Positions 34,660-63,717 of a stretch of DNA of 64,000 bases are shown here, in pieces. A program made the translations under genes and the position numbers. Origin of the DNA: a virus (taxonomy: Duplodnaviria; Caudoviricetes); IMG/VR virus record IMGVR_UViG_3300028569_001484, positions 1 to 64,000 of that record, one strand, 5' to 3'. The notes under the pieces are model-generated. The model ran no database searches. It was not told where the DNA came from and worked only from the letters and a program-made list of their open reading frames with translations. Within the stretch, counting starts at the first letter, position 1. Each line of letters starts with the position of its first letter.

Positions 34660-34815
34660 ATGGGTAGAAAGAAATTAAATAGAACACCAGATGAAATACG
34701 AGAACAAAATAGAAAACGATACGAACGATTCTACAGAAAAAATTGTAACAGAATCAGAAAAGAAAAACTTGAACGATATCACAACAAAGTGGACAAGACA
34801 TTGCCCGAAATGTAA
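34660..34815 (+). CDS. MGRKK-family small basic protein, copy A (not in ORF track)
   Basis: MGRKKLNRTPDEIREQNRKRYERFYRKNCNRIRKEKLERYHNKVDKTLPEM; TATTTAT at 34646; three homologues in window. Confidence 0.75.
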   Translation: MGRKKLNRTPDEIREQNRKRYERFYRKNCNRIRKEKLERYHNKVDKTLPEM

Positions 34816-35594
34816 TAAGGAAATAATCTATAAAGATAAATATAACTGTTCTTATGCATCGTTAAAAAATACAAATTGTATGTCATGCAATGCTACAGGC
34901 AAAAAACACAGCGTGGAAACTATTGAAAAAATTAAAAATAAAAATATAAATAAAAAAGTATCTTTTGAAACCAGAGAAAAATTGTCAAAAATAAATACTG
35001 GAAAAAAATTATCGAATAACACTAGATTAAAAATAAAATCATCTTTAATAGGCAATAAAAGAATGCTTGGAAAACACCATACTACTAATACCAAACAAAA
35101 AATTTCTACGTCATTAAAAGGAAAAATGTGTGGGATTAAGAATCCGAGATATGGCAAAGTTGGAACAAATAAAGGAAAAAAGTTTTCTTTAGAAACCAGA
35201 CGGAAAATATCACAATCTCGTATGGGTAAAAAAGCATCGGAAGAAACAAAGAGAAAAATTCAGAGAATTGTTCTTAAAAAGAAAGTTAAAATCCGGAAGC
35301 ATATTTTTTCCAGCATATAATGAAACCGCATGTTTGTATTTTGATTGGTTGAATAAATGGATGGGTTGGAAAGGTCGGTTTGCAACGAACGGTGGCGAAT
35401 TTCAAATAGGCAATTATTTCGTTGATTATTACGAACCGGAATTAAATATTGTTATTGAATATGATGAAAAACATCATTTTAAAGGGGGGGAACTAAAAGA
35501 AAAAGATGTTTTAAGAATGGAATACATTAAAAAAACTTTACATTGCAGGTTTTTCAGATATACTGAGAGTAACAATGTAATCTTAGAGTACTAA
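34691..35594 (+). mobile_element. NUMOD3-repeat / PD-(D/E)XK (Vsr/DUF559-like) homing-type endonuclease with a 1-nt frameshift near 35254-35258
   Basis: CPKC zinc ribbon, HSVETIEKI-type repeats, NGGE...VDYY...IEYDEKHH; paralog at 57681-58619 is uninterrupted. Confidence 0.8.
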
Positions 35595-35597
35595 ATC

Positions 35598-38255
35598 ATG
35601 TATCAAAATATTTATATTTCACAAAAAGAAAAATTAGCCTATATTTGGGATGATAAAAAAGGTTTGGTAAAAATACCACTCCATAAAGGAGTATACGCAT
35701 ATAGAAAATCGACTAATGGTATATATAAAAGTATATACGGTGATAAATTAGAGAAAATTTATAAATTCAATCCAAAAGACCCCAGTTTATTTGAAAGCGA
35801 TGTTAAACTAGAAACTAGGTTTTTAATAGATTTGTACGAGGACAGTGACGAACCTTCTGAAGGACATCGTGTTGTGTATCTTGACATTGAAGTTAGTACC
35901 GAAGGTGGCTTTCCAAACGTAGAAGAAGCTGATAAAGAAATTACAGCTATTGCTATTTATGATAGTTGTACATCTAAATATACAGCTTTCATTTTGGATA
36001 AAGAACATAAGCTACAGGACTTCGTTAAAGAAAATGTAGAAGTACGTAGTTTTACAGATGAAGATAGTCTATTGATGCACTTTCTTACCAAATGGGAAGA
36101 AATTCAACCTACTATTAGTACTGGTTGGAACAGTGATAACTTCGACATGCCGTATCTATTCCGTCGTATGAAAAATATCGTTGGTCCAAACAATGCAAAA
36201 CGTTTGAGTCCAATTCAAGTTGCTTATATCAATGACTGGAATAAGAAAGTTATTGTAGCTGGGGTAACTCATTTGGATTATATGACTCTTTACAAGAAGC
36301 TTAATATTAAACAAGAAGCTAGTTATGCTCTTGGTGCTATTGGTAAAAAGATCGTGGGTATGGAAAAGATTGCCTATAAAGGTAGTTTGGATGATTTGTA
36401 CAAAGCTGATATCAACAAGTATATTGAATATAACTTGAACGACGTACAAATCATTGTAGCACTAGAAAAGAAGTTACAGTTTATTGAATTGGCAAGGGCT
36501 ATTTGTCACAAGGGTCACGTTCCATATGAATGGTATGAAATGAGTTCTCGTTTCATTGAAGGTGCTATTCTTATGTATCTACGTCGTAAAGGACAAGTCG
36601 CTAAAAATAAATCATTGGATGGCCGTGATGAATATGAAACTCAAATGGAAGATAATGAACAAGGTTTTGAGGGTGCTTATGTTAAAGCTCCTACTCCCGG
36701 TCGTTATGATTGGGTCTTTGACTTGGACCTTACATCAATGTATCCGAATATCATCATCAGTCTTAACTTATCGCCTGAAACTAAAGTAGCAGTAATTAAT
36801 AAGATTGAATATGATGATTCTTATGTAGAAGATCGCACCAAAGAAATTCGTGAGGATTATGAGAATCTAGGTGATAGTGCTCAGAAGAAGACTCCATTTG
36901 CTCAATATCTTGAACAACGGTTGTACGCATTTAATGCTAGATTGTTTGCTCAAGACAAGATTGGCAAGTATCACGTTGGATCTACAGTTTATACCAATGA
37001 TGAATTTAAACAGTTAATTACACAAACTAATTTGAGTGTTGCTAGTAATGGAGTAATGTGTAAACAAGACAAGACTGGGGTTATTCCGGAAATTCTAGTA
37101 AAGTGGTTCGATGAACGTAAGGATCTTCGTAAACTTGCTAAAAAGCATGCAGATTTAAAAGAATGGGAAAAATATGAATTTTATGATGGTCGTCAAAAAG
37201 TACAAAAAGTATTACTTAATTCAATCTACGGTGTATTGGGTCTACCGATCTTTAGATTTTATGACAAGGATAATGCGAGCGCTGTTACCATAACTGGTCA
37301 AGATATTATCAAATCTACTGGTAAGGCTATTAATGAATGTTTCAAACGTTCACTGAATGAGAAAGAAGGAGATTGGGTTATCTATACAGATACAGATAGT
37401 TGTTTTGCTAGTGCATTACCTATCATCAAAAAGAATATGCCTGATATCGATCTAAACGATGAAAAGGCAATGACTGAGGCTATTTTGAAAGTAACTGGTG
37501 ATGTACAATCATTTGTTAATAAGTTTTATGATGTAATGGCAAAACGTTACTTCAATATTGAGAAACATCGATTTGACGCAAAACAAGAAGTTATTGCCAA
37601 GACCAGTTTCTGGTTGGCTAAGAAACGTTATGCTCAGTTTATTATCAACAAAGCCGGTATTGAGTGTGATGAAATGGAAGTAAAGGGTATTGACGTAGTT
37701 CGTACATCATTTCCAATTAGGTTTCGTAAGTTTATGCAAAAGTTCTTGGATGATATGTTACGTAAACTCCCAAAAGAGCAAATTGATGCTAGTATTCTTG
37801 AATTTAAGGATAAGATGTCTACTTATCCAGTTATTGAGATTGCAAAGAATACTAGTGTAAAGTTTAAGAGTCAAAATGGAGATAATGATTATAATCCAAA
37901 GACCAGACATCCATTTCAGTTTATGGATGGTACTCCAGCACAAGCTAAAGCAGCTTTGGCTTATAATGATTTGTTGAAGACTTGGAAGTTAGACAAAGAT
38001 GTACCTGAGATTTTCCACGGTCAAAAGATCAAGTGGGTATATCTAAAACAAAATCAATATGGCGTTGAAGGTATTGCTATGAAAGCTGATGGTACTGATC
38101 CTGATCGTATTATGGAGTTCATTGAACAATATGTAGACAGAAATGCTATGTATGAGCAAGAACTTAAAGGCAAGTTGTTAGACTTTTATAATGTGTTGAA
38201 TTGGAGTTATCCAAATGAGACAGATGTTAAATTGGAAGAGTTTTTTAGTTTTTAA
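35598..38255 (+). CDS. polB: family B DNA polymerase
   Basis: Exo LDIE, GWNSDNFD, YNLND; DLTSMYP, KVLLNSIYG, YTDTDS, KKRY. Confidence 0.97.
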   Translation: MYQNIYISQKEKLAYIWDDKKGLVKIPLHKGVYAYRKSTNGIYKSIYGDKLEKIYKFNPKDPSLFESDVKLETRFLIDLYEDSDEPSEGHRVVYLDIEVSTEGGFPNVEEADKEITAIAIYDSCTSKYTAFILDKEHKLQDFVKENVEVRSFTDEDSLLMHFLTKWEEIQPTISTGWNSDNFDMPYLFRRMKNIVGPNNAKRLSPIQVAYINDWNKKVIVAGVTHLDYMTLYKKLNIKQEASYALGAIGKKIVGMEKIAYKGSLDDLYKADINKYIEYNLNDVQIIVALEKKLQFIELARAICHKGHVPYEWYEMSSRFIEGAILMYLRRKGQVAKNKSLDGRDEYETQMEDNEQGFEGAYVKAPTPGRYDWVFDLDLTSMYPNIIISLNLSPETKVAVINKIEYDDSYVEDRTKEIREDYENLGDSAQKKTPFAQYLEQRLYAFNARLFAQDKIGKYHVGSTVYTNDEFKQLITQTNLSVASNGVMCKQDKTGVIPEILVKWFDERKDLRKLAKKHADLKEWEKYEFYDGRQKVQKVLLNSIYGVLGLPIFRFYDKDNASAVTITGQDIIKSTGKAINECFKRSLNEKEGDWVIYTDTDSCFASALPIIKKNMPDIDLNDEKAMTEAILKVTGDVQSFVNKFYDVMAKRYFNIEKHRFDAKQEVIAKTSFWLAKKRYAQFIINKAGIECDEMEVKGIDVVRTSFPIRFRKFMQKFLDDMLRKLPKEQIDASILEFKDKMSTYPVIEIAKNTSVKFKSQNGDNDYNPKTRHPFQFMDGTPAQAKAALAYNDLLKTWKLDKDVPEIFHGQKIKWVYLKQNQYGVEGIAMKADGTDPDRIMEFIEQYVDRNAMYEQELKGKLLDFYNVLNWSYPNETDVKLEEFFSF

Positions 38256-38261
38256 AAAGTT

Positions 38262-38669
38262 ATGAAAAAATATAGTGAGTTATTGACTATTCCTGAAGAG
38301 GGATCGTCGTTAGAGTTGAAAACTAGTTATGATACAGTTATTGCTCGTAAATATGAACGTGTGGTAATTGGTCAACGGGGTCCATATGTAGAATTTACAC
38401 CCAATCAAATGATGTGTGATAAACTGTTTATTCCTAAAAATCAATTATATAGACTAAGTGACCCAAAGGTTTACTATATTGAGTTTAGAACCAATGATAG
38501 TAGCAATGTGAAAGTATATTATCAAATGAGAACAGTCGCATATGCAGATTATAAAATTGGTTATTTTTATGTATCACCAAGTGATTTATACAGTGGGGGT
38601 ATAAAGTGTCTTTCTGAAAAGAATCACATCAATGAAAACGTGGGATTATTTTTTGAATTCAACAATTGA
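38262..38669 (+). CDS. hypothetical phage protein
   Basis: RVVIGQRGPYVEF...VAYADYK ORF between polymerase and clamp. Confidence 0.7.
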   Translation: MKKYSELLTIPEEGSSLELKTSYDTVIARKYERVVIGQRGPYVEFTPNQMMCDKLFIPKNQLYRLSDPKVYYIEFRTNDSSNVKVYYQMRTVAYADYKIGYFYVSPSDLYSGGIKCLSEKNHINENVGLFFEFNN

Positions 38670-38694
38670 CAAACAAATCGACATCGGTTAACAT
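38666..38694 (+). promoter_or_regulatory. sigma70-like promoter, near-leaderless
   Basis: TTGACA-17 nt-TAACAT, ATG 8 nt downstream. Confidence 0.65.
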
Positions 38695-38702
38695 TATAGA
38701 GT

Positions 38703-39440
38703 ATGAAGAAACAAGTATTAACTACATTTATCGACAAATATTCACTCAACGGTACCATTGAAAGTGTTAAATGGATCGTTGACAACAGCAACAAACAAAT
38801 CAAAACAGCATCAATTAGTGATGATAAAAACGTTATCAGTTATGTTGTGATTAAAGATGACGCGGGGTTGACTGATTCTGAGATTGGTATCAATGATACT
38901 ACCAAGCTAAAGAAGTTGTTGAATGTTCTAACAGAGGACGTTAACATCTCATATAACAAGCGTGAAGAGAAGATTGTTTCACTATCATTGAATAGTGAAG
39001 GTACTGATGTACAGTACGTTACTGCTGATTTGACTGTGATTCCAAAGGTTCCAGATCTCAAAAAGTTGCCTCCGTTCAATTTAGAGATTCCTCTTACGAA
39101 GGACTTTGTTACTACATTCGTTAAAGCTAAGAGTGCTTTGAGTGATGTTGATACAATGACTTTTATCAAAGATAAAAAGGATAAGATCAAGTTAACTATT
39201 GGATATAGCAGTGTTAATAGCAATCGTATTAATATCGATATCAAGCCAACAGAAGGTAAAGATACTCTTGGTAAGACTATTCACTTTAGTGCTAAGTATC
39301 TAAAAGAGATTTTGACTAGCAATAGTGATTGTGAAAATGCAGTATTGAAGATCAGTGATGCTGGTATTGCTCACGTTGAGTTTAATAACGATCTATTCAA
39401 TAGTTCTTATTATCTAATTGACATCAAGAGCGTAGATTAA
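38703..39440 (+). CDS. DNA polymerase sliding clamp (gp45/PCNA-like)
   Basis: 245 aa, position between polB and clamp loader, FSAKYLKEIL...LKISDAG...YYL clamp-like C-terminus. Confidence 0.7.
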   Translation: MKKQVLTTFIDKYSLNGTIESVKWIVDNSNKQIKTASISDDKNVISYVVIKDDAGLTDSEIGINDTTKLKKLLNVLTEDVNISYNKREEKIVSLSLNSEGTDVQYVTADLTVIPKVPDLKKLPPFNLEIPLTKDFVTTFVKAKSALSDVDTMTFIKDKKDKIKLTIGYSSVNSNRINIDIKPTEGKDTLGKTIHFSAKYLKEILTSNSDCENAVLKISDAGIAHVEFNNDLFNSSYYLIDIKSVD

Positions 39441-39464
39441 TAAAGTAATATAAACGATATGTGT

Positions 39465-39494
39465 ACCGTTAATTTAATTATTAACGGTTTTTTT
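39465..39494 (+). terminator. intrinsic terminator
   Basis: accgttaat-ttaatt-attaacggt followed by T run. Confidence 0.7.
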
Positions 39495-39559
39495 AATATT
39501 AATTTAAATGTTTGGATTTTTTTGTTTGGAGTTTTATATATATAAATAGAAAGATTTAT

Positions 39560-39721
39560 ATGGGGAGAAAGAAAAAATATGAAACGAAACAACAACTTAT
39601 CAATGCAAAAAAAGAATGGCGTAAAAAACACTATTATAAAAAACAAAAATATTATCAAGAGCAAAGAATGCTTAGATATTGGGCGGATAAAAATTTGGAC
39701 AAAAATTTGTCCTCAATGTAA
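39560..39721 (+). CDS. MGRKK-family small basic protein, copy B
   Basis: MGRKKKYETKQQLINAKKEWRKKHYYKKQKYYQEQRMLRYWADKNLDKNLSSM. Confidence 0.75.
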   Translation: MGRKKKYETKQQLINAKKEWRKKHYYKKQKYYQEQRMLRYWADKNLDKNLSSM

Positions 39722-40268
39722 AAATATAATTAATTTTATAAATTATAAATCATATAAATTTTCTATTAAAAATAATAGTAGATGTAAAATTTGCACTAGT
39801 AACGATCTAAACAGGTGTAAAAAAATATCAAACGCTGTAACTAAGAGACAATTAGGTTCAAAATTAAGTGAAAAAACAAAAGAAAAATTATCTTTAAAAT
39901 TTCTCGGTAAAAATAATCCTATGTATGGTAAAGATGGTGGGATGTTTGGTAAAAAACATTCAAACATTAGTAAAGAAAAACAATCATTGGCTAGAAAATC
40001 TTATTGGGATAAAAAGAGGATTTTGCCTAGAAATAAATTTCAAGAATATAGAGATTCCGTTGATTGTTTGACCAGAAAACAACCGATTCATTTGTTGGAA
40101 AATTCTAACAAACGAGGAAAAGCTGGAATAGAAGGCGCCTTTCATTTAGATCATATAATATCTGTTTGGTACGGTTATCATCACAATATACCGGCTGAAG
40201 AAATTGCTAATATTAAAAATTTGAGGTTTATTTCTTGGTTAGAAAATCAAAAAAAGTGGTGTAATTAA
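39579..40268 (+). mobile_element. HNH homing-type endonuclease with NUMOD3 motifs
   Basis: WTKICPQC, NNPMYGK, MFGKKHS, FHLDHIIS...NLRFISWLENQKK. Confidence 0.8.
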
Positions 40269-40278
40269 AAATATTTTC

Positions 40279-40307
40279 TTGACTGTGGATCTTAGTTGAG
40301 GTATCAT
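40279..40307 (+). promoter_or_regulatory. sigma70-like promoter, probably leaderless transcript
   Basis: TTGACT-17 nt-TATCAT-AATCTA-ATG(40314). Confidence 0.7.
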
Positions 40308-40313
40308 AATCTA

Positions 40314-41273
40314 ATGAATGAATTTATAGATTTTCAAATTAAACCGTCTGAAAAAACACAATCTTTATGGGTGGAAAAATATCGTCCTGACGTATTGGAC
40401 GGCTATGTTTGTGACGATCATTTGAAAAATATCTTGAAGGATTTTATTTTCAAAAAAGATGTTCCTCATTTGTTGCTTCATGGAAATGCTGGTACTGGCA
40501 AGACAACTCTTGCCAAGATTATAACCAAGAATATTCCATGTGATGTAATGTACGTAAATGCTTCGGACAATACTGGTGTAGATTTTGTTCGTGACAAGAT
40601 TAGACCATTTGCTTCTTCAATGGGGTTTTATGATCTTAAGATTGTTATCTTGGACGAATCTGATTATATGTCAACTGCTTCACAAGCATCACTACGTAAT
40701 CTTATGGAAACTTATAGTAAGTCTACTCGATTTATTCTTACTTGTAATTATGTAGAAAAAATTATTTCTCCGTTAATTAGTCGTTGTCAATCGTTTCAAA
40801 TTGAACCGCCTGCCAAGAAAGATGTAGCTCTTTATTCCAAGAATATACTTGACAAGGAAACTATCAAGTATGAATTGTCCGAGTTAAAGACCGTTGTAGA
40901 TAGTTTTTATCCGGATATTCGTAAAATTGTTAACTTCCTCCAACAGAGTTCTACAAATGGAACTTTGAAGTTGGGTAAAATACAGAGTGCTAGCTTTGAT
41001 TTGAAGAACAAGTTAATTGACTTATTAAAGTCTGCTAAGACAAATGGCAAGTCATTTAATGAAATTCGTCAATTGATTAATGATGCGGGTACACGTAATT
41101 TTGAAGAACTTTATACAGAACTATATTCTAGAATTGACGAATATGCAGTTGGTAAAGAAACATTAATTATTATAGAAATCGCAGAATATGTATATCAGAG
41201 TAGTATGGTTGTAGACAAAGAAATTACATTTATGGCTTGTGTTGCTAAGATTATTAAATCAATAAATAAATAA
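40314..41273 (+). CDS. clamp-loader ATPase (RFC small subunit / T4 gp44-like)
   Basis: WVEKYRP, GNAGTGKTT, NASD, ILDESD, FILTCN, SRC. Confidence 0.92.
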   Translation: MNEFIDFQIKPSEKTQSLWVEKYRPDVLDGYVCDDHLKNILKDFIFKKDVPHLLLHGNAGTGKTTLAKIITKNIPCDVMYVNASDNTGVDFVRDKIRPFASSMGFYDLKIVILDESDYMSTASQASLRNLMETYSKSTRFILTCNYVEKIISPLISRCQSFQIEPPAKKDVALYSKNILDKETIKYELSELKTVVDSFYPDIRKIVNFLQQSSTNGTLKLGKIQSASFDLKNKLIDLLKSAKTNGKSFNEIRQLINDAGTRNFEELYTELYSRIDEYAVGKETLIIIEIAEYVYQSSMVVDKEITFMACVAKIIKSINK

Positions 41274-41274
41274 T

Positions 41275-43397: not shown

Positions 43398-43405
43398 ATC
43401 ATTTT

Positions 43406-44416: not shown

Positions 44417-44431
44417 TATAATTATATAAAA

Positions 44432-45202: not shown

Positions 45203-45209
45203 CAATTTT

Positions 45210-51791: not shown

Positions 51792-51812
51792 TTTAAGATA
51801 GTTATTTTTGTT

Positions 51813-53201: not shown

Positions 53202-53229
53202 AAAAACCCCCTTTCGGGGGTTTTGTTTT
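53201..53229. terminator. bidirectional intrinsic terminator
   Basis: A6-ccccc-tttc-ggggg-T4 between convergent genes. Confidence 0.85.
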
Positions 53230-53488: not shown

Positions 53489-53491
53489 AAA

Positions 53492-54997: not shown

Positions 54998-55006
54998 ATA
55001 CTATAA

Positions 55007-56592: not shown

Positions 56593-56612
56593 TGTAATAT
56601 TATGTATGGTTG

Positions 56613-57356
56613 TTAAAATCTCTGACGCAAAATCTTTTTACTATCTTGTAGTATATCAGGATCAAATATTTTTGGTCCTTTGCTGATATAACCTTTGCCG
56701 CTCGTAAATGTACAATTATAACAAAGCAGTCTCATATTTTCTATTTTATGATTCTTGTTGTTACCGTCTTCAAAATTTAACAATAATGGCAACTTACCAT
56801 CAAGTATACGTCTTTCTCTAAATTCACACTGCTCACATTCTGCTTTTTTGATGCCTGATCTAATTAACTTATCTTTTAGTCTATGCACTGGAAACTCAGG
56901 ATGTTTACCATCCAATATATCATTAATAGGATATTTTCCTCTATATGGATTAATTGGCCCACGTGGACGAGAAGTTTTTACAATAGGCCATCCTTTAGTT
57001 TTGTGTACGCCGTATTTTTTAGCATACATTTTAAACGTAGGATAACTTACTCCCAAAAACTTTGCTGCTTTTCTAGCTGAGACAGTTCGTTCGATTGCTT
57101 CTAATATTTCAGATTCGGTAATTGGTTTTCTTTTTTTACCATCTGTTGGACGCTTTGGATAAAGCTGATCTGCATATTGGTTTTCTAAGTGGGGAATAGT
57201 AATGCCTTTTCCCTGCAATATTCTTATTTGTTCAATTTCAAGTTTTACATCTTCTCCAATTTCACTCAATGACAATAATTTCTCAACTTTAATTTTAAGG
57301 TCTTCAAGTTCTTTTAACTTTCGAGTTATTTCTTCGTTATCAAATATATTGTTCAT
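56613..57356 (-). CDS. HTH plus degenerate HNH-like protein
   Basis: ARKAAKFLGVSYPTF HTH; CEQC...LLLNFEDGNNKNHKIENMRLLCYNC. Confidence 0.7.
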   Translation of the reverse strand: MNNIFDNEEITRKLKELEDLKIKVEKLLSLSEIGEDVKLEIEQIRILQGKGITIPHLENQYADQLYPKRPTDGKKRKPITESEILEAIERTVSARKAAKFLGVSYPTFKMYAKKYGVHKTKGWPIVKTSRPRGPINPYRGKYPINDILDGKHPEFPVHRLKDKLIRSGIKKAECEQCEFRERRILDGKLPLLLNFEDGNNKNHKIENMRLLCYNCTFTSGKGYISKGPKIFDPDILQDSKKILRQRF

Positions 57357-57691
57357 TAGTATTTAGATGATGATATTGGTTCTTTAGCTAAATCTATTTC
57401 AGTGCTATCGTAAAATACTCTACGTAAAGTTTCTGCTCTAAATGGAAATGATGCGTTCAAAAGTACTTTGTATGTATTTACTATTTTTTCTTTGCTATTT
57501 TTCCTTTTTAATGATTTAACAACCATTATAGGATTAACTAAAAAGTCATCGTCTTCTTTTAAAGTTTTAATTTTATCTTCAATGCATCGTGTACAAGCTT
57601 CTATATGAGGATCATCAAATATAGTCTCGTCAATTGATATCGTCATAGACCAGTTTGCGGATTTAACCAAGTAGTTATTTTTATTTAACAT
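57356..57691 (-). CDS. hypothetical protein
   Basis: Coupled ORF. Confidence 0.65.
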   Translation of the reverse strand: MLNKNNYLVKSANWSMTISIDETIFDDPHIEACTRCIEDKIKTLKEDDDFLVNPIMVVKSLKRKNSKEKIVNTYKVLLNASFPFRAETLRRVFYDSTEIDLAKEPISSSKY

Positions 57692-58619
57692 AGTTCATAT
57701 CTCCATCGTTAAGTAAATCCAAGTTAATTTTAATTAGTTGATTACTATTTTCATTATATCTATAGAATTTACATTTTAAATGATTAATAATTTCAACCAT
57801 TCTTTTATAATCTTTTTGTTTCAAATTACCATTAATATCATAATGATGTGGTTCATCATACTCTATAACTATGTTTTTTTCTACATCATAAGCATCTAAA
57901 AAATAACACAATATTCGTTTTTCACCGCCATTTAATGCGTGTTGTAAATTCCAATTATTTTTCTCATTCAATTTATCAAAATAACTACATGCATATGAAT
58001 TAAAGTTAGGACATATTTTGCCAAATTTTTCAATTCTTTTTAATATACTTTCTTTGGCTTTAATAGACAATTTTCTTCTAGTTTCGTCAGATGTTGTCCT
58101 TTTATTTTTTAATTGAGATTCAGATATTTTTTTTCTCACATCTAATCTTTTTGCAGGATTTAATCCTCCAATTTTACCTAAAGACATTTTTAGTTTAGTT
58201 TCAGTAGTTAACTTTTTACCTTTATGTGAATTACTTATTTTTTCTTTTGTTTTATTATTTAATGTTCTACCAATCATCCATTTTCCGGTACCGTTTTTTT
58301 TATGAATAATACTCAATTTAATTTTTTGTTCATCTGTCATTGGAGACAAAATTCTTCCTTTTAATACACAATTTTTACAAAGAACACTTTTTTTAGTAGC
58401 TCGTTTTAACAATTTTAGAGATTTATATGATTGCGTATTATTACACTTAGGACACGACTTTTGATGTATGTTTTTGTTTCCAATATCTGTCCATTCGTTT
58501 TTTATTACATTTTTCTTTGTTTCGTTGATAGTATCGTTTGGAACGGATATTAGATTGTTCTCTAACTTCGTCTTCTGTTCTATTAAGTTTTTTTCTTCCC
58601 ATAAATTGTCTTGGTTCAT
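57681..58619 (-). mobile_element. NUMOD3-repeat / PD-(D/E)XK (Vsr/DUF559-like) homing-type endonuclease
   Basis: CPKC, TKEKISNSHKGKK repeats, QHALNGGE...LDAYD...IEYDEPHH. Confidence 0.8.
58447..58602 (-). CDS. MGRKK-family small basic protein, copy C (not in ORF track)
   Basis: MGRKKLNRTEDEVREQSNIRSKRYYQRNKEKCNKKRMDRYWKQKHTSKVVS. Confidence 0.75.
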   Translation of the reverse strand: MGRKKLNRTEDEVREQSNIRSKRYYQRNKEKCNKKRMDRYWKQKHTSKVVS

Positions 58620-58625
58620 ATACTC

Positions 58626-58648
58626 ATATATATATATATATATATATA
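58626..58648. repeat. (AT)11 dinucleotide microsatellite
   Basis: Uninterrupted AT alternation upstream of MGRKK copy C. Confidence 0.9.
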
Positions 58649-58673
58649 GTGAAAACATAAATAGTGAAAGAAT

Positions 58674-61313
58674 TTATTTATTAATAATTGACCGATTTAA
58701 ATCTCCATCATTCAACAAATCTAAATTTGTAAGTTTTTGGTTTACAGTGTTACACACTCTTTCTTCAATGGTACCCGAAACAAAAACGATTTTTTGTATA
58801 GATTTGCTCTTGGCGCCATCTCGCCAAACTCTTCCCATTGACTGTCTCATATTAACAGCTGAATATGACGGACTTATTAAAGATATTCTAGGATGTTTTC
58901 CGGTTATATCGTGGAGCGAAATTCCGGCACCTCCTGCTGCAATATTAATTAATATAACTCTTTGTTTATCAGATTGAAAATCGTCAATGTTTTTTTGCCG
59001 TTCTTTGTCTTTCACAATACCGTTTACTATACATTTAGTATTTAATCTTTCTGCTAAAGCGTTAATACTTTCTGTAAAGTTTAAAAATACAGCGACACTC
59101 ATATTGTTTTCTAAACTTTCTTCTATCATTTCTATGAATAATGGTATTTTTACCATTTCTATAGACTGACGCATTCTCAATATTGCTGTTAGTTCAGTGC
59201 TCTTTTTATCTTTCTTGAGAAGTTTTTCAATCTTCAACAACTCAAGTTGCATTTCTTCATAAGCTGAATTGATTTTATCTTGGTCTTCTTTATCCATTTC
59301 ATAACATTCAGCGATAATTTGACTTTCTGGGAAGTTAGGAATGGAATCACGATTGAGACGAACGCCTCTGTTAACAAATATGTCATTGCTTAGTTTCTTT
59401 AAAGCATCTACATTACCACGAAACTCTAATCCAAATCTACCTTTTACAACACCGTGTGCATATGCCCATTCATAATACTGTTTGTTGTTCTTGAACAGTT
59501 GAATACATTGTCCTACTGTGCGTAGTTCAAGTGGATTGGTAGCCATAGTAGCACTACAAAACAACATCTTGTAACCTTGTTTGAGTGCTGCCATACACAT
59601 TTCACTATTTTTGGTCTTGGCATTCTTTAACTTTTGTGCTTCGTCCCAAACGATTAAAGTATTTTTGGGAACTTTCCAGACGAATTCTTTACGGTGGGTA
59701 TCTCTACGTTTTACATATGATGCAAACATATTGTCTGTTTTGCCAGTACGTAAAGATTCATAGTTAGTAATACCTACACATTTACCCCACATCTTAAAGT
59801 GATTTTTAATAACCCGTTTCCAACTTTCTTTAACCGCTTTAGGACATACAATCATAATGTCCATATTCAATTCTCTAGCTACAGCTGTAGCAGTATATGT
59901 TTTGCCTGTATTATGAGTAACTGTAAAATCACCAAGAAGAAATCTACCGTCGCCATCAAGTGAAAATCCATAAAAATCGTCATTTGACATAGATTCGACC
60001 GTGAATCCGACAACCAATACATCTTTCTTTTGATTTCTTATGTTTGATTTTTTTCTTTGGATACGTGTTGGAATTGATTCACAATTTCCGCTTATTGAAA
60101 CGTTATAATAATCTCCCACAACGCCATTGTTTGTACATTTCTTTTTGACACATTTAATATATGCGGCAAAACCTAAAGATCGTGATATAAACGCAACGTC
60201 GTTTGCAAGTTGATATGATTTACTAGTAAAATCAAAACCTCCGTTTCTATAATAACCATCAGAATCCAATAAACCAGCAAGTATTTCTAATCTTTGATTT
60301 TTGTTACAAATTTTATATTCTGTAGGAATAAATCTATCTTCACATTTGATTGGTAATAATCCTACATCTCGTAAATATTTAAATAATGTAGGTGCATTTG
60401 TTATTCGTTTTGTTATTGTTTCATTGGTGTTTCCCAATAACCAATTATTTTTATGAGATTCATCAATAATTGATTGCCAACAGATATCATCTATTGATGT
60501 GAACGTAATGATAGATTTCTGTGATAAACCACCGTCGCCTAACAATAACCCCATAAAATATGGAGAAAATGGATGATTCTTGGTCGCCCAATTATCAACT
60601 GCTACACGAAATAATTTCATATGTCGCTTCACTGACAATGGTAATTTTAGATAATCTGATACTTTGATGTCATAGATCTCATTGGAGTTATACCCACCAA
60701 TTGATTTTTTAGTAGAATGTAATTTGGTTATTTTGACTGTCAAAATGTGATTAATATTGACAGTGAAGGAATCTCCTTTTGTGGGAATAATTTTCACCAT
60801 CTGTTCATTTCCAGAACACAATGATGTTACTTTTTGAGGTCCATTCCACCCCATTATCACATCATTTACCACAATATTTTCTACCAATTTTATGGTACCG
60901 TCAAACATCAATATAGTCTGTCCTTTTGCATGACATCCAACGTCACTTCCATCTACAGCCGCCCCCCACTTTTTAATAGAAGATACTATCTTACTTACCG
61001 CTCCAACTTGCCAAGGACGCAATCCATCTGGAGTTTTGACTTCGTATAATGGAAGCGTTTCATCTACCTTTTGTTTGGGTTTTTTTGGATCTTTGAATAA
61101 TGTTGGATTATCATTGGTCTGTGTAAGAACCCAGTCTTGTTCTCTTTTAACGACTCCGTACCCTTTGCTTTTCAACATCAATTTGTTTACCTTCCAATAA
61201 GCAAAGAACTGATTGAGGTAAGATGGGGTAATTACCCATTCACGTTGAAACGTTACGTCTCCGTTTTTTTCTACTTGAACTGGATCTGACCACTTGATAT
61301 CCAAGTTAATCAT
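58674..61313 (-). CDS. SNF2-like superfamily 2 helicase interrupted by an intein
   Basis: LRPWQ, DVG|TGKT Walker A, WDEAQ, SAT, AGGAGISL, QSMGRVWRDG. Confidence 0.88.
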   Translation of the reverse strand: MINLDIKWSDPVQVEKNGDVTFQREWVITPSYLNQFFAYWKVNKLMLKSKGYGVVKREQDWVLTQTNDNPTLFKDPKKPKQKVDETLPLYEVKTPDGLRPWQVGAVSKIVSSIKKWGAAVDGSDVGCHAKGQTILMFDGTIKLVENIVVNDVIMGWNGPQKVTSLCSGNEQMVKIIPTKGDSFTVNINHILTVKITKLHSTKKSIGGYNSNEIYDIKVSDYLKLPLSVKRHMKLFRVAVDNWATKNHPFSPYFMGLLLGDGGLSQKSIITFTSIDDICWQSIIDESHKNNWLLGNTNETITKRITNAPTLFKYLRDVGLLPIKCEDRFIPTEYKICNKNQRLEILAGLLDSDGYYRNGGFDFTSKSYQLANDVAFISRSLGFAAYIKCVKKKCTNNGVVGDYYNVSISGNCESIPTRIQRKKSNIRNQKKDVLVVGFTVESMSNDDFYGFSLDGDGRFLLGDFTVTHNTGKTYTATAVARELNMDIMIVCPKAVKESWKRVIKNHFKMWGKCVGITNYESLRTGKTDNMFASYVKRRDTHRKEFVWKVPKNTLIVWDEAQKLKNAKTKNSEMCMAALKQGYKMLFCSATMATNPLELRTVGQCIQLFKNNKQYYEWAYAHGVVKGRFGLEFRGNVDALKKLSNDIFVNRGVRLNRDSIPNFPESQIIAECYEMDKEDQDKINSAYEEMQLELLKIEKLLKKDKKSTELTAILRMRQSIEMVKIPLFIEMIEESLENNMSVAVFLNFTESINALAERLNTKCIVNGIVKDKERQKNIDDFQSDKQRVILINIAAGGAGISLHDITGKHPRISLISPSYSAVNMRQSMGRVWRDGAKSKSIQKIVFVSGTIEERVCNTVNQKLTNLDLLNDGDLNRSIINK
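59910..60935 (-). mobile_element. LAGLIDADG intein (342 aa) in helicase Walker A
   Basis: Starts CHAKGQ, GLLLGDG and LAGLLDSDG motifs, ends FTVTHN before Thr. Confidence 0.92.
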
Positions 61314-61316
61314 AAA

Positions 61317-61616
61317 TCAATCACCCATTTCACTACGGTACTTGTTATTTCTAGCCAATTCGTGAATGTTGGTACGCACCAGTCTACCATCTTTCTTTAA
61401 TGCGCCAACTTCAAAAGAATCACTCATCAAATTGGTAAAATTTATACCCTGTGGGTCATCATAACCATGTCCAAGTTCAGACATATCAAACATAAAGTCT
61501 TTACGACGTTTACCATTTTTCTTGATGCATAAATTTTCTAGGTAATTAACCACCTCATTTAGATCGTTAAATGTTACGACCTTATTTATTGTTGTGTCTT
61601 TGATATAGTAACTCAT
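61317..61616 (-). CDS. hypothetical protein
   Basis: ORF with upstream TTGAAA-17 nt-TAAACT (61628-61656). Confidence 0.7.
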   Translation of the reverse strand: MSYYIKDTTINKVVTFNDLNEVVNYLENLCIKKNGKRRKDFMFDMSELGHGYDDPQGINFTNLMSDSFEVGALKKDGRLVRTNIHELARNNKYRSEMGD

Positions 61617-61676
61617 ATATTTCTTATAGTTTACTATATAACTATCTAACTTTCAATACTATTTAATATTATAATC

Positions 61677-62264
61677 TTAGTTAGAAGATATAGGTACAGG
61701 TGAGTAAATATTACGTTCTGTTTGACTGCGTATAGTTTCAAAATAATTAATCAAATTGTTGATTGTATGATCCGCAATGTCTTCAAACCAATCATTAGGT
61801 TTAAATTCTGTTGTACTTATTCCACCGTGTACTGGTTTTAAATTACCATTTTGAAATTCACCACGTAAAAAATTAATTAGATCTTTTTTAAGATTTTGTT
61901 TTTGTGAAATTACAAATATTTCACTTAATTCTTCTTTGTAACTTACTCTTACAGGAGATTGTCCTTTGCCACCACTACCTTTTTCTCCTCTACCAGCTGA
62001 TCTTTGTGCAGACTTCTTTCTCTTTACCCAATTAGCAATTGCTTTTTTACCGCCACTAGATCTTAGTCTAGCCGCATATTTTTTGCCTAAACAGGCACTG
62101 TAACTACTTCCTTGTTTAGCATCACCACATTTACCCGCTTTTTTGCCTGTACTATCATATCGATCCCAACCACCCCCACTGCTACTGCCCACTGGTCCTT
62201 TACCAAACCACGCACGTAATCCACCTTTATAGGCTTCTAATAAGAATTTGTCGTATTGATTCAC
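61677..62264 (-). CDS. putative internal head protein (basic Gly-rich module)
   Basis: LLE then GLRAWF...W...CG...CL...KRKK; likely GTG start after TATTTAT. Confidence 0.6.
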   Translation of the reverse strand: MNQYDKFLLEAYKGGLRAWFGKGPVGSSSGGGWDRYDSTGKKAGKCGDAKQGSSYSACLGKKYAARLRSSGGKKAIANWVKRKKSAQRSAGRGEKGSGGKGQSPVRVSYKEELSEIFVISQKQNLKKDLINFLRGEFQNGNLKPVHGGISTTEFKPNDWFEDIADHTINNLINYFETIRSQTERNIYSPVPISSN

Positions 62265-62275
62265 AACAATAAATA

Positions 62276-62452
62276 TCAATTAGATTCGTTATTTTTATTA
62301 AAAATGTTGCCTAAGTTTGTGAAGAATTTTTCTATTTTAGATTTATTGACCTTTTTCTTTTTGGTTTCGGATAGGTAAAATTTGATTTCCGCTTCATCCA
62401 AAACCACTTCGTTTCCATTGATATTGACGGTGATGCTTTTGTTCTTTTTCAT
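62276..62452 (-). CDS. 58-aa hypothetical protein (not in ORF track)
   Basis: MKKNKSITVNINGNEVVLDEAEIKFYLSETKKKKVNKSKIEKFFTNLGNIFNKNNESN fills the gap. Confidence 0.55.
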   Translation of the reverse strand: MKKNKSITVNINGNEVVLDEAEIKFYLSETKKKKVNKSKIEKFFTNLGNIFNKNNESN

Positions 62453-62460
62453 ACAGGCGC

Positions 62461-62495
62461 AAAAAAAATATATAATCGGTTAAGATTATATATTT
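62461..62495 (-). terminator. putative terminator hairpin
   Basis: aaatatataatc-ggttaa-gattatatattt with adjacent A run. Confidence 0.5.
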
Positions 62496-62523
62496 GTGTA
62501 TTTTAAAATTAGTTAATATTTGT

Positions 62524-63168
62524 TTAAACACCCATCAAAAAGTGTTCCCAATCTTTGTGTTTTGCTTCTTTAATCAAAGCTGACACTGGAATTGGTTGTG
62601 GAATACTAGGTTGTTTGATCAACTTCAAACCAGCTTCTGTATTCAACCTATTACCTTTTTTAGAATTGATATCCCGTGAACACAGTACCAGATTGGTCCA
62701 ACTGTCTTCTCCACCTTTACTGCGAGGTAGAATATGGTCTACAGTAGCTGAGTGACGATCAATCTTCTTGCCTGTGTACTGACAGATACCATTATCACGA
62801 TTATAAATCGCATCCTTGCTAGGTTTTCCTTTAAATGACTTCACAGGCATTTTGCTGAAATTAACAGCAATGATAACGGTTGGTACACGTACAGACATAT
62901 GAGCTGAATTGATTACCAAATCCCAGGGACGAATAGGTAGTTTCAACCATTCGGTCCAACTTACGGGATTCATATTCTTGGGAGCATAAAGATTTGGCTC
63001 TCCGTTCTCAAGCAGTTCGTAGTCAATGTCCAACGCCAAACTAGAAGGCTTACCATCAACTTCAGCACCACAAAGATCAATAATTGCATCTTTTACGGTT
63101 TTGAAACCAATTGGTTGCCAGTTCGAATTTAGGTTCAAACAGATCAATTTATTAGCTATTGTATTCAT
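62524..63168 (-). CDS. HNH endonuclease (McrA-like, host-type)
   Basis: LNLNSNWQPI, VPTVI, RDNGICQYTG, TVDHILPRSKGG...WTNLV...NSKKGN. Confidence 0.85.
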   Translation of the reverse strand: MNTIANKLICLNLNSNWQPIGFKTVKDAIIDLCGAEVDGKPSSLALDIDYELLENGEPNLYAPKNMNPVSWTEWLKLPIRPWDLVINSAHMSVRVPTVIIAVNFSKMPVKSFKGKPSKDAIYNRDNGICQYTGKKIDRHSATVDHILPRSKGGEDSWTNLVLCSRDINSKKGNRLNTEAGLKLIKQPSIPQPIPVSALIKEAKHKDWEHFLMGV

Positions 63169-63180
63169 AACTATACTATA

Positions 63181-63208
63181 ACTATACACCTCTTTTTATA
63201 AAAGTCAA
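63181..63208 (-). promoter_or_regulatory. sigma70-like promoter
   Basis: TTGACT-16 nt-TATAGT. Confidence 0.55.
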
Positions 63209-63499
63209 CACATTTTCTTCGGGTTCTAAACTTTCGTCAAGTCTATCAATTGCCATTTGTAAACTGCTAATTTCAAACCATTCATTTTTTTTACTTCTGG
63301 CAAAATGCTTCATTTGTTCGTGTATATCTTTTTCCGCACTATAACAGTCTGGGTGTTCTATATAATACTCTATTTTGTAATTTCTTAATGGACTGCTTGT
63401 TTGATATGTACGCAGTCTGGATTTAATGTCTTCAGTTACTCCTATTTTTATCCAACCTGGGAATGATTTGTTTGTTATTATATATATGTATCCTCGCAT
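63182..63499 (-). CDS. GIY-YIG / T5orf172 domain protein
   Basis: GYIYII...WIKIG...RLRTYQTSSP...EKDIH...EWF. Confidence 0.85.
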   Translation of the reverse strand: MRGYIYIITNKSFPGWIKIGVTEDIKSRLRTYQTSSPLRNYKIEYYIEHPDCYSAEKDIHEQMKHFARSKKNEWFEISSLQMAIDRLDESLEPEENVLTFIKRGV

Positions 63500-63516
63500 A
63501 TAAATATATATGTATA

Positions 63517-63549
63517 TTGTAATATTTTTGTAATATTTTTGTAATATTT
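63517..63549 (+). repeat. 11-bp tandem direct repeat x3
   Basis: ttgtaatattt three times, ending 6 nt before MGRKK copy D. Confidence 0.9.
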
Positions 63550-63555
63550 ATTTTT

Positions 63556-63717
63556 ATGGGGAGAAAAAAAATATATGAAAATGAAACCAATGTCGAAAAA
63601 CTTAAACGGTATAGACGGTATCGAATGCAATCTTATTGGAGAAACATCGACAAAGAAAGATTTAAAGCACGTGAGAGATATAAAAACATCAGTCGGAATT
63701 TACAAGATAATAAATAA
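63556..63717 (+). CDS. MGRKK-family small basic protein, copy D (not in ORF track)
   Basis: MGRKKIYENETNVEKLKRYRRYRMQSYWRNIDKERFKARERYKNISRNLQDNK. Confidence 0.7.
   Translation: MGRKKIYENETNVEKLKRYRRYRMQSYWRNIDKERFKARERYKNISRNLQDNK

What the first reader, a model, noticed from the sequence alone, without database searches (positions are those of the whole stretch)
34660..63717. Four homing endonucleases of three unrelated families each carry an overlapping MGRKK leader ORF in the same +1 frame relationship
Seen: homologous 51-53 aa Arg/Lys/Tyr-rich ORFs at 34660-34815(+), 39560-39721(+), 58447-58602(-) and 63556-63717(+). All begin MGRKK and share Tyr25 and Arg39-Tyr40 (shifted by two residues in copy D). 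Each overlaps the 5' end of a nuclease: two NUMOD3/PD-(D/E)XK, one HNH and one GIY-YIG. The nuclease is in the +1 frame in 4 of 4 cases. Conservation switches frame just after the (A/C)GA-TAT codons: upstream the 0 frame is conserved and the annotated nuclease N-termini look like shadows, while downstream the +1 frame gives WTRHCPKC, WTKICPQC, KSCPKC or GIYKI and the peptide tails are shadows. Inference: either a programmed +1 (or -2) frameshift makes abundant free peptide plus rare peptide-nuclease fusion, or the peptide is a separate controller whose translation throttles a toxic nuclease started at its own ATG (34691, 39579, 58619, 63575). Known homing-endonuclease controls (RBS-sequestering hairpins, I-TevI autorepression) differ from this, and I do not recognise this module from the literature. 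No shared slippery heptamer is visible beyond GATAT plus nearby A runs.
Basis: partly seen in the sequence, partly recalled or inferred. Interest (0 to 1): 0.9.

Follow-up and report, generated by a model that had tools for sequence, protein, structure and literature searches.

The report
Small overlapping gene heading homing endonucleases
Four phage homing-endonuclease genes each start with an overlapping gene for a conserved 50-residue basic protein and a matching pair of DNA repeats; this portable, undescribed module is common in uncultured water phages and more likely controls the nuclease than is fused to it by frameshifting.

Summary
All four MGRKK ORFs sit where stated, each with a nuclease ORF in the +1 frame. 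A profile of the four finds 139 clusters of mostly 44-60 aa proteins. Of 76 distinct loci (72 IMG/VR, 4 window), 73 have the nuclease in +1, one in +2 and two in frame. Contigs from three other studies show no indel across copy C.

Amino-acid constraint lies in frame 0 up to the RY codons and in +1 afterwards. A programmed frameshift is not needed. Every nuclease ORF has its own ATG. The +1 frame is kept free of stops from that ATG onward: 25 stops seen against 64-138 expected. Loci without an upstream ATG all carry an internal one (31 of 31, 18 expected). Six complete loci, plus one cut by its contig end, start the nuclease at the junction.

The module also carries two cassette-specific direct repeats and a TATTTAT box. 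It swaps between GIY-YIG, zinc-finger/NUMOD3 and other nucleases.

Best reading: a separately translated two-helix protein, probably a DNA-binding controller. An earlier scan note on the adjacent window of this genome saw the same module.

The parts
34620..34639 (+). Cassette A: two direct repeats TTCCAACG (34620-34627 and 34632-34639)
   Evidence: The 8-mer occurs only at these two places in the 64-kb window. Repeat of 9 with offset 12.
34646..34652 (+). Cassette A: TATTTAT box, 7 nt before the peptide ATG
   Evidence: box-to-first-ATG gap mostly 4-7 nt across loci.
34660..34815 (+). Cassette A: MGRKK protein ORF, 51 aa, frame 0
   Evidence: L068 is a close IMG/VR relative.
34691..35320 (+). 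Cassette A: nuclease ORF in +1 frame with its own ATG at +31; zinc-finger-like CxxC pairs and NUMOD3 repeats. The +1 frame is closed by TAA at nt 17-19 of the peptide ORF.
   Evidence: (NUMOD3 4e-15).
35268..35594 (+). Cassette A: catalytic C-terminal part of the nuclease in a further +1 frame (split gene)
   Evidence: 49% identity to residues 205-310 of the copy C nuclease, E 7e-28.
39510..39530 (+). Cassette B: two direct repeats GTTTGGA (39510 and 39524), followed by TATAAATA at 39541
   Evidence: A terminator-like hairpin lies just upstream at 39465-39488.
39560..39721 (+). Cassette B: MGRKK protein ORF, 53 aa (MGRKKKY subfamily)
   Evidence: P0004 is 82% identical.
39579..40268 (+). Cassette B: nuclease ORF in +1 frame, ATG at +19; NUMOD3. 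The HNH assignment is not confirmed.
58648..58669 (-). Cassette C: two direct repeats TTTCACT at a 15-nt offset (58669-58663 and 58654-58648), then a (TA)n run
58447..58602 (-). Cassette C: MGRKK protein ORF, 51 aa
   Evidence: The AF2 model has pLDDT 92.8: N-terminal arm 1-9, helices 10-27 and 29-50.
57681..58658 (-). Cassette C: nuclease ORF in +1 frame with ATGs upstream of the peptide ATG (58658 at -56, 58619 at -17); CxxC pairs, weak NUMOD3, C-terminal domain with weak PD-(D/E)XK-like fold matches
63518..63551 (+). Cassette D: three direct repeats TGTAATATTT (63518, 63529, 63540) and a TATTTAT box at 63545
   Evidence: The 10-mer occurs only at these three places in the window.
63556..63717 (+). 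Cassette D: MGRKK protein ORF, 53 aa
63575..64000 (+). Cassette D: GIY-YIG nuclease ORF in +1 frame, ATG at +19, cut by the window end
   Evidence: GIY-YIG 8.5e-8.

Best explanation
Each of the four genes carries a portable 5' module of free-standing homing endonucleases. The module has three parts: two (in D three) short direct repeats whose core is specific to the cassette; an AT-rich TATTTAT-type box; and, 4-7 nt further on, a dual-coding stretch.

Frame 0 of that stretch encodes a 45-60 aa basic protein with an extended MGRKKLNRT arm and a two-helix hairpin. Frame +1 encodes a sequence-unconstrained, stop-free run-in to the nuclease. The two proteins are started separately, from two ATGs that lie 17-40 nt apart or, in a minority, with the nuclease ATG at the end of the small ORF. 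No frameshift is needed.

Shown here: purifying selection on the small protein; selection for an open +1 frame and for a +1 ATG; the module swapping among unrelated nucleases; and the two repeats changing together.

Inferred: the small protein is a DNA-binding controller that recognises its own cassette's repeats and sets how much nuclease is made, much as C proteins control restriction endonucleases. Also inferred: the closely spaced or nested start codons make the two initiations compete, so that the nuclease stays scarce.
For: 1. Family and linkage. The profile search found 139 clusters at E <= 1e-3, nearly all 44-60 aa. There were 79 IMG/VR loci with MGRK[KR]LNR and 7 with MGRKKKY. Of 76 distinct loci, 73 have the nuclease in +1. 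Pfam on 59 +1 ORFs gave GIY-YIG in 29, NUMOD3 in 30 and Vsr in 3, plus others.

2. Frame 0 is the constrained frame. Codon position 2 is invariant and position 3 is free at L6, T9, R20, Y25 and Y40. Mean aa identity over nt 16-120 is 0.46 in frame 0, 0.27 in +1 and 0.29 in +2.

3. The +1 frame is kept open. There are 25 stops in codons 1-40 of 69 loci, 17 of them at nt 17-19. Expected numbers are 138 +/- 8 with background codon usage and 64 +/- 6.5 with the peptides' own usage; 0 of 1000 resamplings reach the observed value. Leu is CTT/CTC and GTA is absent.

4. The nuclease has its own start. The ATG is upstream in 40 loci, at +19 to +97 in 23, and at +121 in 6, where +1 is closed until nt 67-112. 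WD and L057 are cut by sequence ends. No long +1 ORF lacks an ATG. An internal ATG is present in 31 of 31 loci that lack an upstream one, against 18.0 +/- 2.4 under synonymous resampling (maximum 25 in 2000). In L054 the nuclease (DUF7487 + REase_MTES_1575) is in +2 with an ATG at the junction.

5. In-frame fusions are rare, and one is a singleton: P0051 has 1 member on 1 contig.

6. The module behaves as a unit. The first ATG after the box is in the nuclease frame in 36 loci and is the peptide ATG in 24, mostly at a gap of 4-7 nt. Box 1 and box 2 are 0.77 identical within a locus against 0.38 across loci, and 52 of 66 loci match at 5 or more of 7 positions. Core classes go with peptide residues 14-25 and are mixed over nuclease types. 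The four window cassettes differ in both core and peptide.

7. Structure. The AF2 model has pLDDT 92.8 and shows a basic arm plus a helical hairpin.

8. This is not an assembly error.
Against: No experiment or RNA data bears on translation. The one RNA run laid covers only 57615-57725.

DNA binding by the small protein is inferred from composition, the predicted fold and the co-varying repeats. The boxes and the peptide ORF lie within 100 bp of each other, so shared descent alone could produce their association.

A sigma-70 consensus scan does not flag the cassette upstream regions: 34 sites found against 29 expected. The promoter reading of the TATTTAT box therefore rests on position alone.

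The two conserved domains abut within 3-4 codons of RY. Natural in-frame fusions exist. In eight loci the +1 ORF continues with 15-residue Y-Y-x-x-N-K repeats, roughly in phase with Y25 and Y40. These three facts would also fit a fusion product.

Why a nuclease should carry a 45-70 residue unconstrained N-terminal extension is not explained.
Confidence: 0.55

Rival explanations
1. Programmed +1 ribosomal frameshift, or loss of one base by transcriptional slippage, joins the MGRKK domain to the nuclease. The result is abundant free peptide plus rare fusion protein, in the manner of IS-element OrfA/OrfAB.
For: Conservation switches from frame 0 to +1 within a few codons of RY. The out-of-frame +1 arrangement is kept in 73 of 76 loci, while in-frame forms are rare. 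The natural in-frame proteins L018 (351 aa), L074/L075 (junction in frame with the CxxC motif), P0051 and P0096 show that the fusion is a viable architecture. In eight loci the +1 ORF continues with Y-Y-x-x-N-K repeats of about 15 residues, roughly in phase with Y25 and Y40. AAA-A or AAA-G sites lie between RY and the nuclease motif in all four window copies (my reading).
Against: No locus needs a shift, because every long +1 ORF has its own ATG. That ATG is selected for. The +1 frame is stop-depleted over the whole overlap, not only at the junction; a junction shift would not require this. In six complete loci, plus one cut by its contig end, the +1 frame is closed upstream and an ATG sits at the junction. 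One locus uses +2. No shift site is conserved in position: codons 41-46 are variable. The A7 run in the R-K-K codons is missing in 15 of 69 loci by my reading of the listing, and in 17 loci a +1 stop follows it directly. AAA-R sites are expected everywhere in a Lys-rich gene at 30% GC.
Confidence: 0.2
2. The small protein acts on the nuclease protein itself, as an inhibitor (antitoxin-like) or a required subunit, rather than on DNA.
For: Tight genetic linkage and co-translation from one mRNA region. Rare in-frame fusions suggest the two can work in one complex.
Against: The same module heads nucleases with different Pfam families (GIY-YIG, NUMOD3, Vsr, Phage_endo_I, REase_MTES_1575, DUF4379), which offer no common surface. 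The small ORF stays intact next to decayed nuclease remnants in L046 and L047. Its composition (N-terminal GRKK arm, conserved R, K, Y and N) suits nucleic-acid binding. It co-varies with the upstream repeats, not with nuclease type.
Confidence: 0.1
3. The small protein is separately made but serves homing or phage competition in some other way. It might bind or mark DNA at the cassette border, protect the donor genome, or act on host or co-infecting phage functions. The repeats would then be something other than its operator.
For: Similar N-terminal motifs occur on long Agaricomycete proteins of unknown function, so the domain is not tied to nuclease control. The repeats lie at the 5' edge of the mobile unit.
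Against: Nothing specific supports it. The regular geometry (repeat - repeat - TATTTAT box - first ATG) looks like an expression signal.
Confidence: 0.12
4. Artefact: assembly indels split in-frame genes, or the small ORFs are chance ORFs in purine-rich DNA.
For: A-runs near the junctions could cause homopolymer errors. Purine-rich DNA has few stops.
Against: Contigs from three other studies list no indel across the peptide ORF and the junction of copy C. The same frame relation holds in 73 of 76 distinct loci from many samples. Frame 0 shows a coding substitution pattern and 139 homologous clusters.
Confidence: 0.02

Closest known systems
C (controller) proteins of type II restriction-modification systems, e.g. 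C.PvuII
   Same: A small regulator gene is co-transcribed with a nuclease gene and overlaps its start, and control delays or limits a dangerous nuclease (abstract of PMC2997769). Repeated C-boxes upstream of the regulator's own promoter and leaderless transcripts are recalled; I saw only the search listing and the start of the abstract of PMC2175313.
   Different: By recall, C proteins are helix-turn-helix proteins of about 80 aa. The overlap there is +/- 20 nt (PMC2997769 abstract); here it is 130-200 nt in most loci. Here the protein is a 50-aa arm plus helical hairpin with no Pfam or PHROG family. The partner is a homing endonuclease, and no methylase is involved. Binding to the repeats is not shown.
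I-TevI autorepression and RBS-sequestering hairpins of T4 homing endonuclease genes
   Same: Expression of a phage homing endonuclease is held down by a dedicated cis element at its own start.
   Different: In that case the nuclease's own DNA-binding domain or an RNA hairpin does the job. Here a separate conserved protein gene is overprinted on the nuclease 5' end.
IS1/IS3-type OrfA / OrfAB made by programmed -1 frameshift (recalled; general review PMC5009743 consulted by term search only)
   Same: A short upstream ORF for a DNA-binding part overlaps a catalytic ORF in another frame, in a mobile element with a harmful enzyme.
   Different: In IS elements the downstream frame is -1 and (recalled) has no start of its own, and a slippery heptamer is conserved. 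Here the frame is +1, the ORF has its own selected ATG, and no conserved shift site is seen.
NUMOD / IENR DNA-binding modules of homing endonucleases (NUMOD3 from Pfam; the rest recalled)
   Same: Short, basic, helical modules that are shuffled among GIY-YIG, HNH and other homing endonucleases. The MGRKK domain is in frame in a few natural proteins.
   Different: Those modules are parts of the nuclease polypeptide. This one is almost always a separate ORF in another frame, and it travels with upstream DNA repeats.

Membership tests
Programmed +1 ribosomal frameshift gene (prfB / antizyme type) | The downstream frame has no independent start; the product can only arise by the shift | tested here: not met
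   All 71 long or end-cut +1 ORFs have an ATG after their last upstream stop. 31 of 31 loci without an upstream ATG have an internal one, against 18.0 +/- 2.4 expected.
Programmed +1 ribosomal frameshift gene (prfB / antizyme type) | A conserved shift site (re-pairing P-site codon plus slow or stop A-site codon), often with a stimulator | tested here: not met
   Codons 41-46 are variable. Junction alignments of 26 GIY-class loci show no motif beyond what the two protein frames impose. The 0-frame stop lies inside the nuclease motif, so a shift at the stop would delete that motif.
Programmed +1 ribosomal frameshift gene (prfB / antizyme type) | A trans-frame protein is detected | not testable with these tools
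   No proteomic or ribosome-profiling data are available. The one RNA run laid covers only 57615-57725.
GIY-YIG homing endonuclease (copy D) | GIY-YIG catalytic domain | tested here: met
   Pfam PF01541, E 8.5e-8, 32.8 bits against a cut-off of 22.6. 29 of 59 relatives' +1 ORFs match it.
NUMOD3-bearing homing endonuclease (copies A, B, C) | NUMOD3 repeats | tested here: met
   A 55.7 bits and B 34.4 bits against a cut-off of 20.4. C scores 16.2 bits, below the cut-off. L001, 78% identical to C, scores 21.4 bits.
HNH endonuclease (copy B) | HNH / His-Me finger domain | tested here: inconclusive
No Pfam HNH match at E <= 1 on the whole protein or on its last 89 residues. No PDB sequence match. 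N motif supports it.
PD-(D/E)XK / Vsr-like nuclease (copies A, C) | Restriction-endonuclease-like fold with catalytic D ... E-x-K | tested here: inconclusive
   No Pfam or PDB sequence match for the C-terminal 139 aa of C. 3 of 59 relatives match Pfam Vsr. The AF2 model has pLDDT 88-95 over residues 161-250; the best Foldseek rows are at E 0.09-0.4 and are mostly PD-(D/E)XK nucleases, including Hjc and I-Bth0305I.
C-protein-type controller of a nuclease gene | Small regulator gene upstream of the nuclease gene and overlapping it, in one transcription unit | tested here: met
   ORF geometry in 4 of 4 window copies and 73 of 76 loci. A single transcription unit is inferred, not shown.
C-protein-type controller of a nuclease gene | Helix-turn-helix fold of the Xre/C family | tested here: not met
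   No Pfam family at E <= 1 except chance-level rows. The AF2 model is an arm plus two long helices.
C-protein-type controller of a nuclease gene | Binds repeated boxes in its own promoter and regulates transcription | not testable with these tools
   Repeats are present and change in concert: identity 0.77 within a locus against 0.38 across loci. They go with peptide residues 14-25. Binding is not tested.

The most novel reading that the evidence does not exclude
The module is a self-contained, orthogonal expression controller that moves between unrelated nucleases. A 50-residue arm-plus-hairpin protein reads a cassette-specific 6-7 bp core, present twice about 15 bp apart, through a few residues (about positions 16-24). 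Several cassettes can then coexist in one phage genome without cross-talk. The nested start codons on a nearly leaderless transcript fix the ratio of peptide to nuclease. If so, this would be a new minimal sequence-specific DNA-binding fold with a readable recognition code, and a new principle for how homing endonucleases are kept harmless.
Probability: 0.3. Interest if true: 0.85.

Novelty: new variant of a known kind. Interest (0 to 1): 0.75.

Why it matters
Free-standing homing endonucleases shape phage genomes, but how their expression is kept low is known for only a few T4 genes. This finding shows an abundant, unannotated protein family: 139 clusters at 50% identity, and 30 Atlas clusters, the three shown holding 75-119 members each. 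The family is almost always overprinted on the 5' end of such nucleases, together with its own repeat-bearing upstream DNA, and the whole unit swaps between nuclease families.

It offers a testable candidate for a general control device of selfish nucleases. It is also a clean natural example of long dual coding, in which one frame is selected only to stay open. It may provide a very small DNA-binding domain with variable specificity.

For annotation, gene callers will keep choosing one of the two ORFs and mis-starting the nuclease. Frameshift finders will report these loci as recoding sites, although every nuclease ORF has its own start.

Tried and rejected
Searches that found nothing:
- The window's own genome is not held.
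- blastn of 34300-40300 against cultured phages gave no match. tblastn of the copy C peptide gave none at E <= 1. tblastn of P0007 gave three chance-level Ralstonia phage rows at E 5. The module was therefore not found in the 50,697 deposited phage records by these searches; BLAST's low-complexity filter may hide it.
- The word-based search for longer proteins with the copy C peptide found no candidate.
- Alignment A2 (70 peptides) was too diverse for the search for related loci, so I used the smaller A3 and A5.
- Genome contigs gave two short MAG contigs only.
- Pfam and PHROGs have no family for the four peptides. One relative, P0003, hits phrog_17714 (unknown function) at 1.8e-4.

Structure comparisons:
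- Foldseek of the peptide model against PDB gave 0 rows. VIA-align wide gave only generic long-helix matches at Z <= 5.0. Nothing can be said about its fold family.
- Sequence searches for the catalytic domains of B and C and Foldseek on the C model gave no firm result.

Promoters and RNA:
- The sigma-70 scan of 34300-39800 found 34 sites against 29.2 expected, none at the cassette upstream regions.
- RNA run X19 covers only 57615-57725 and tells nothing about expression.

Readings considered and rejected:
- Transcriptional slippage or -1 slippage on the A7 run formed by the R-K-K codons. The run is absent in 15 of 69 loci (my reading). It is present equally where the +1 frame is closed right after it (17 loci).
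- A frameshift at the 0-frame stop codon, because it would remove the CxxC or GIY motif.

Weak or unused evidence:
- The pairwise substitution count by phase rests on only 6 pairs from two groups of three.
- Complex prediction was not used, because the report claims no protein-protein binding.
- Supplementary files of papers were not opened.

Full report
**What is in the window**

The four small ORFs exist as described: 34660-34815(+), 39560-39721(+), 58447-58602(-) and 63556-63717(+). They align with M1, G2, R3, K4, K5, Y25, R39 and Y40 invariant. Their shared start pattern occurs four times in 64 kb and nowhere else, against 0.25 expected. In all four, a long ORF in the +1 frame overlaps the small one.

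Pfam names NUMOD3 in A and B, and weakly in C. It names GIY-YIG in D. The HNH (B) and PD-(D/E)XK (A, C) assignments could not be confirmed by Pfam or by PDB sequence searches. A model of the C nuclease gives only weak fold rows, mostly to PD-(D/E)XK nucleases.

The phage is a distant T4-like virus. Its DNA polymerase is 41% identical to that of Microcystis phage Mel-JY01, the best hit. Its DNA is at about 30% GC. Its genes mostly lack Shine-Dalgarno sequences, by my reading of the 45-nt upstream regions printed.

**The small protein is a real and widespread family**

A profile of the four peptides, run against 1.84 billion representative proteins, found 139 clusters at E <= 1e-3. Nearly all are 44-60 aa and match from residue 1. 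Neither Pfam nor PHROGs has a family for the four window peptides. The ESM Atlas lists 30 unnamed clusters, and the taxa recorded for the rows shown are viral. No deposited phage genome matched, and only two MAG contigs did.

The stretch around copy C occurs in lake, river, sediment and marine metagenomes of 14 studies. Contigs from three studies other than the likely source cover the peptide ORF and the junction, and no indel is listed at 58440-58614. The frame offset is therefore not an assembly error.

**The frame relation is general**

Scanning IMG/VR with MGRK[KR]LNR gave 79 loci, and MGRKKKY gave 7 more. After removing duplicates by their first 200 nt and adding the four window copies, 76 distinct loci remain. 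They divide as follows:
- 69 have a long +1 ORF that begins with an ATG.
- 2 more, WD and L057, have the same ORF cut by the end of the sequence.
- 2, L046 and L047, keep a decayed +1 remnant.
- 1, L054, has its nuclease (DUF7487 + REase_MTES_1575) in +2.
- 2 are in frame: L018 (351 aa) and L074 (a 114-aa remnant).

Pfam on 59 of the +1 ORFs gave GIY-YIG in 29, NUMOD3 in 30 and Vsr in 3. It also gave HNH families, DUF4379, DUF559 and Phage_endo_I in one or two each.

**Which frame is under selection**

In the first 41 codons, the variation is that of a frame-0 coding sequence. Position 2 is invariant and position 3 is free at L6, T9, R20, Y25 and Y40. Mean pairwise aa identity over nt 16-120 is 0.46 in frame 0, 0.27 in +1 and 0.29 in the untranslated +2. 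After the GIY motif, the nuclease frame has 0.79 against 0.45-0.50 for the other two.

Six close pairs show substitutions moving from frame-0 third positions to +1 third positions around nt 91-150. The part of the nuclease ORF that overlaps the peptide has no amino-acid constraint.

**Why I do not favour a frameshift**

1. The +1 frame is kept open along the whole overlap, not only at the junction. There are 25 stops in codons 1-40 of 69 loci. Expected numbers are 138 +/- 8 with the flanking genes' codon usage and 64 +/- 6.5 with the peptides' own usage (0 of 1000 resamplings reach the observed value). The +2 frame has 284 stops, as expected. Leu is CTT/CTC rather than TTA/TTG, and GTA is never used. 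By my reading, Arg after M37 is CGA where AGA would make TGA in +1.

2. Seventeen of the 25 stops sit at nt 17-19. In those loci, an ATG follows in +1 at +31, +40 or +73.

3. Every long +1 ORF has an ATG: upstream of the peptide ATG in 40 loci, at +19 to +97 in 23, and at +121 in 6. All 31 loci without an upstream ATG have an internal one. Synonymous resampling gives 18.0 +/- 2.4, with a maximum of 25 in 2000.

4. In the +121 class, the +1 frame is closed until nt 67-112. The nuclease then starts at the junction itself, with M-K-I-S-G-I-Y in L057.

5. No shift motif is conserved in position. A shift at the 0-frame stop would delete the CxxC or GIY motif.

6. The in-frame protein P0051 is a singleton.

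**What still speaks for a fusion**

The two conserved domains abut within 3-4 codons. In-frame proteins exist, and their junctions look like the hypothetical shift product. In eight loci, the +1 ORF carries further Y-Y-x-x-N-K repeats of about 15 residues, roughly in phase with Y25 and Y40. I give this rival 0.2.

**The module includes upstream DNA**

Almost every locus has the same layout upstream of the first ATG: a 6-8 nt core, a T-rich spacer, the same core again (offset 15 nt in most loci, 11-14 in some), and then a TATTTAT-type box. With the offset fixed at 15, box 1 and box 2 are 0.77 identical within a locus against 0.38 between loci. In 52 of 66 loci they match at 5 or more of 7 positions.

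The core differs between cassettes: TTTCAC, TTGACG, ATGAC, CCAAC, CTAACG, CTAATG, TCTAC, GTCG and others. Each class goes with its own version of peptide residues 14-25. Each class is also found on several nuclease types.

The four window cassettes have four different cores. The A and D cores occur nowhere else in the window. Other metagenome contigs share only the first 50 nt of the copy C peptide ORF, about 58554-58604, and diverge on both sides. An earlier scan note on the neighbouring window describes a further copy that is near-identical to C up to the RY codons and then continues as a GIY-YIG gene. All of this marks the repeats plus the small ORF as one evolutionary unit that recombines with nuclease bodies at the RY junction.

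The first ATG after the box lies mostly 4-7 nt downstream. It is in the nuclease frame in 36 loci and is the peptide ATG in 24. This fits a very short or absent leader, with two competing starts. A sigma-70 scan does not call these regions promoters, so that part is inference. Cassette B is preceded by a terminator-like hairpin at 39465-39488, which suggests that it needs its own promoter.

**The small protein**

AlphaFold2, run with 70 sequences, gives a confident model (pLDDT 92.8). It has an extended basic arm (residues 1-9) and two helices (10-27 and 29-50) forming a hairpin. Fold searches are uninformative.

Weak but patterned matches to the N-termini of long hypothetical proteins of three Agaricomycete fungi suggest that the domain is older than this use.

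**Conclusion**

The finding is real, general and, by five literature searches, undescribed. The most likely mechanism is two separately initiated, overlapping genes in a portable control module, with the small protein as a DNA-binding controller. The closest analogue is the C-protein control of restriction endonucleases (abstract of PMC2997769). A programmed frameshift is possible but unnecessary. I saw that paper's abstract and outline only. PMC5009743 and bioRxiv 10.1101/2022.08.31.505936 were consulted by term search only and do not describe this module.

Noticed in passing
window 34691-35594 (+): The cassette A nuclease is split. Its catalytic C-terminal part (ORF 35268-35594) lies in a further +1 frame and is 49% identical to residues 205-310 of the copy C nuclease. 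The break lies near 35250-35290, beside short A runs. It may be a pseudogene, an assembly indel or a second recoding site; I did not resolve which.
   Followed up: partly
window 58674-61313 (-): An SNF2-type helicase gene carries an intein with Hint and LAGLIDADG homing-endonuclease domains. This is a further mobile element, next to cassette C.
   Followed up: partly
window 57681-57725 and 58674-58727 (-); L001 and L002 upstream regions: The copy C nuclease ends with a near-repeat of the helicase C-terminal tail (L-N-D-G-D motif). The upstream DNA of L001 and L002 encodes the same helicase tail, and the L074 remnant ends with a similar tail. The element seems to sit at the same site, the 3' end of the helicase gene, in several phages. 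This agrees with an earlier scan note.
   Followed up: partly
window 62524-63499 (-): An HNH endonuclease gene (62524-63189) and a T5orf172/MUG113 gene (63182-63499) lie next to cassette D, and neither has an MGRKK leader. The three D repeats fill the 56-nt gap between the divergent T5orf172 gene and cassette D.
   Followed up: partly
window 58627-58648 (-): A (TA)n microsatellite lies between the copy C repeats and the -17 ATG, inside the ORF that begins at the 58658 ATG. Read laying skipped this stretch, so length variation is unknown.
   Followed up: no
window, many gene starts (e.g. 338, 6520, 8456-9094 minus strand, 47909, 63499 minus strand): Most genes lack a Shine-Dalgarno sequence. 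Several non-nuclease genes also have a TATTTAT-type box 0-6 nt before their ATG. The box is therefore a general expression signal of this phage, not special to the cassettes.
   Followed up: no
P0077, P0101, P0105 (also P0129, P0131): Long hypothetical proteins of Agaricomycete fungi (Leucogyrophana, Coprinellus, Hypsizygus) begin with a similar M-G-R-P-K-L-Y ... R-Y-Y-x-x-N ... R-Y motif, at E 3e-5 to 2e-4. P0101 and P0131 carry it twice.
   Followed up: partly
L019, L026, L042, L044, L045, L055, L071, L079 (+1 ORFs): In this group of nucleases, a conserved C-terminal domain (G-S-A-V-K-D-L-G-C ... D-H-I motif) is preceded by arrays of roughly 15-residue Y-Y-x-x-N-K repeats. These weakly match the MGRKK profile, with domain E 0.004-0.02. 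At most three of the 59 ORFs scanned matched a Pfam HNH model, and the tally does not show whether any belongs to this group.
   Followed up: partly
L046, L047, L074/L075: These are decayed cassettes. The small ORF is intact while the nuclease is truncated to 32 and 26 residues after nt 121 (L046, L047), or reduced to an in-frame mini-remnant (L074).
   Followed up: partly
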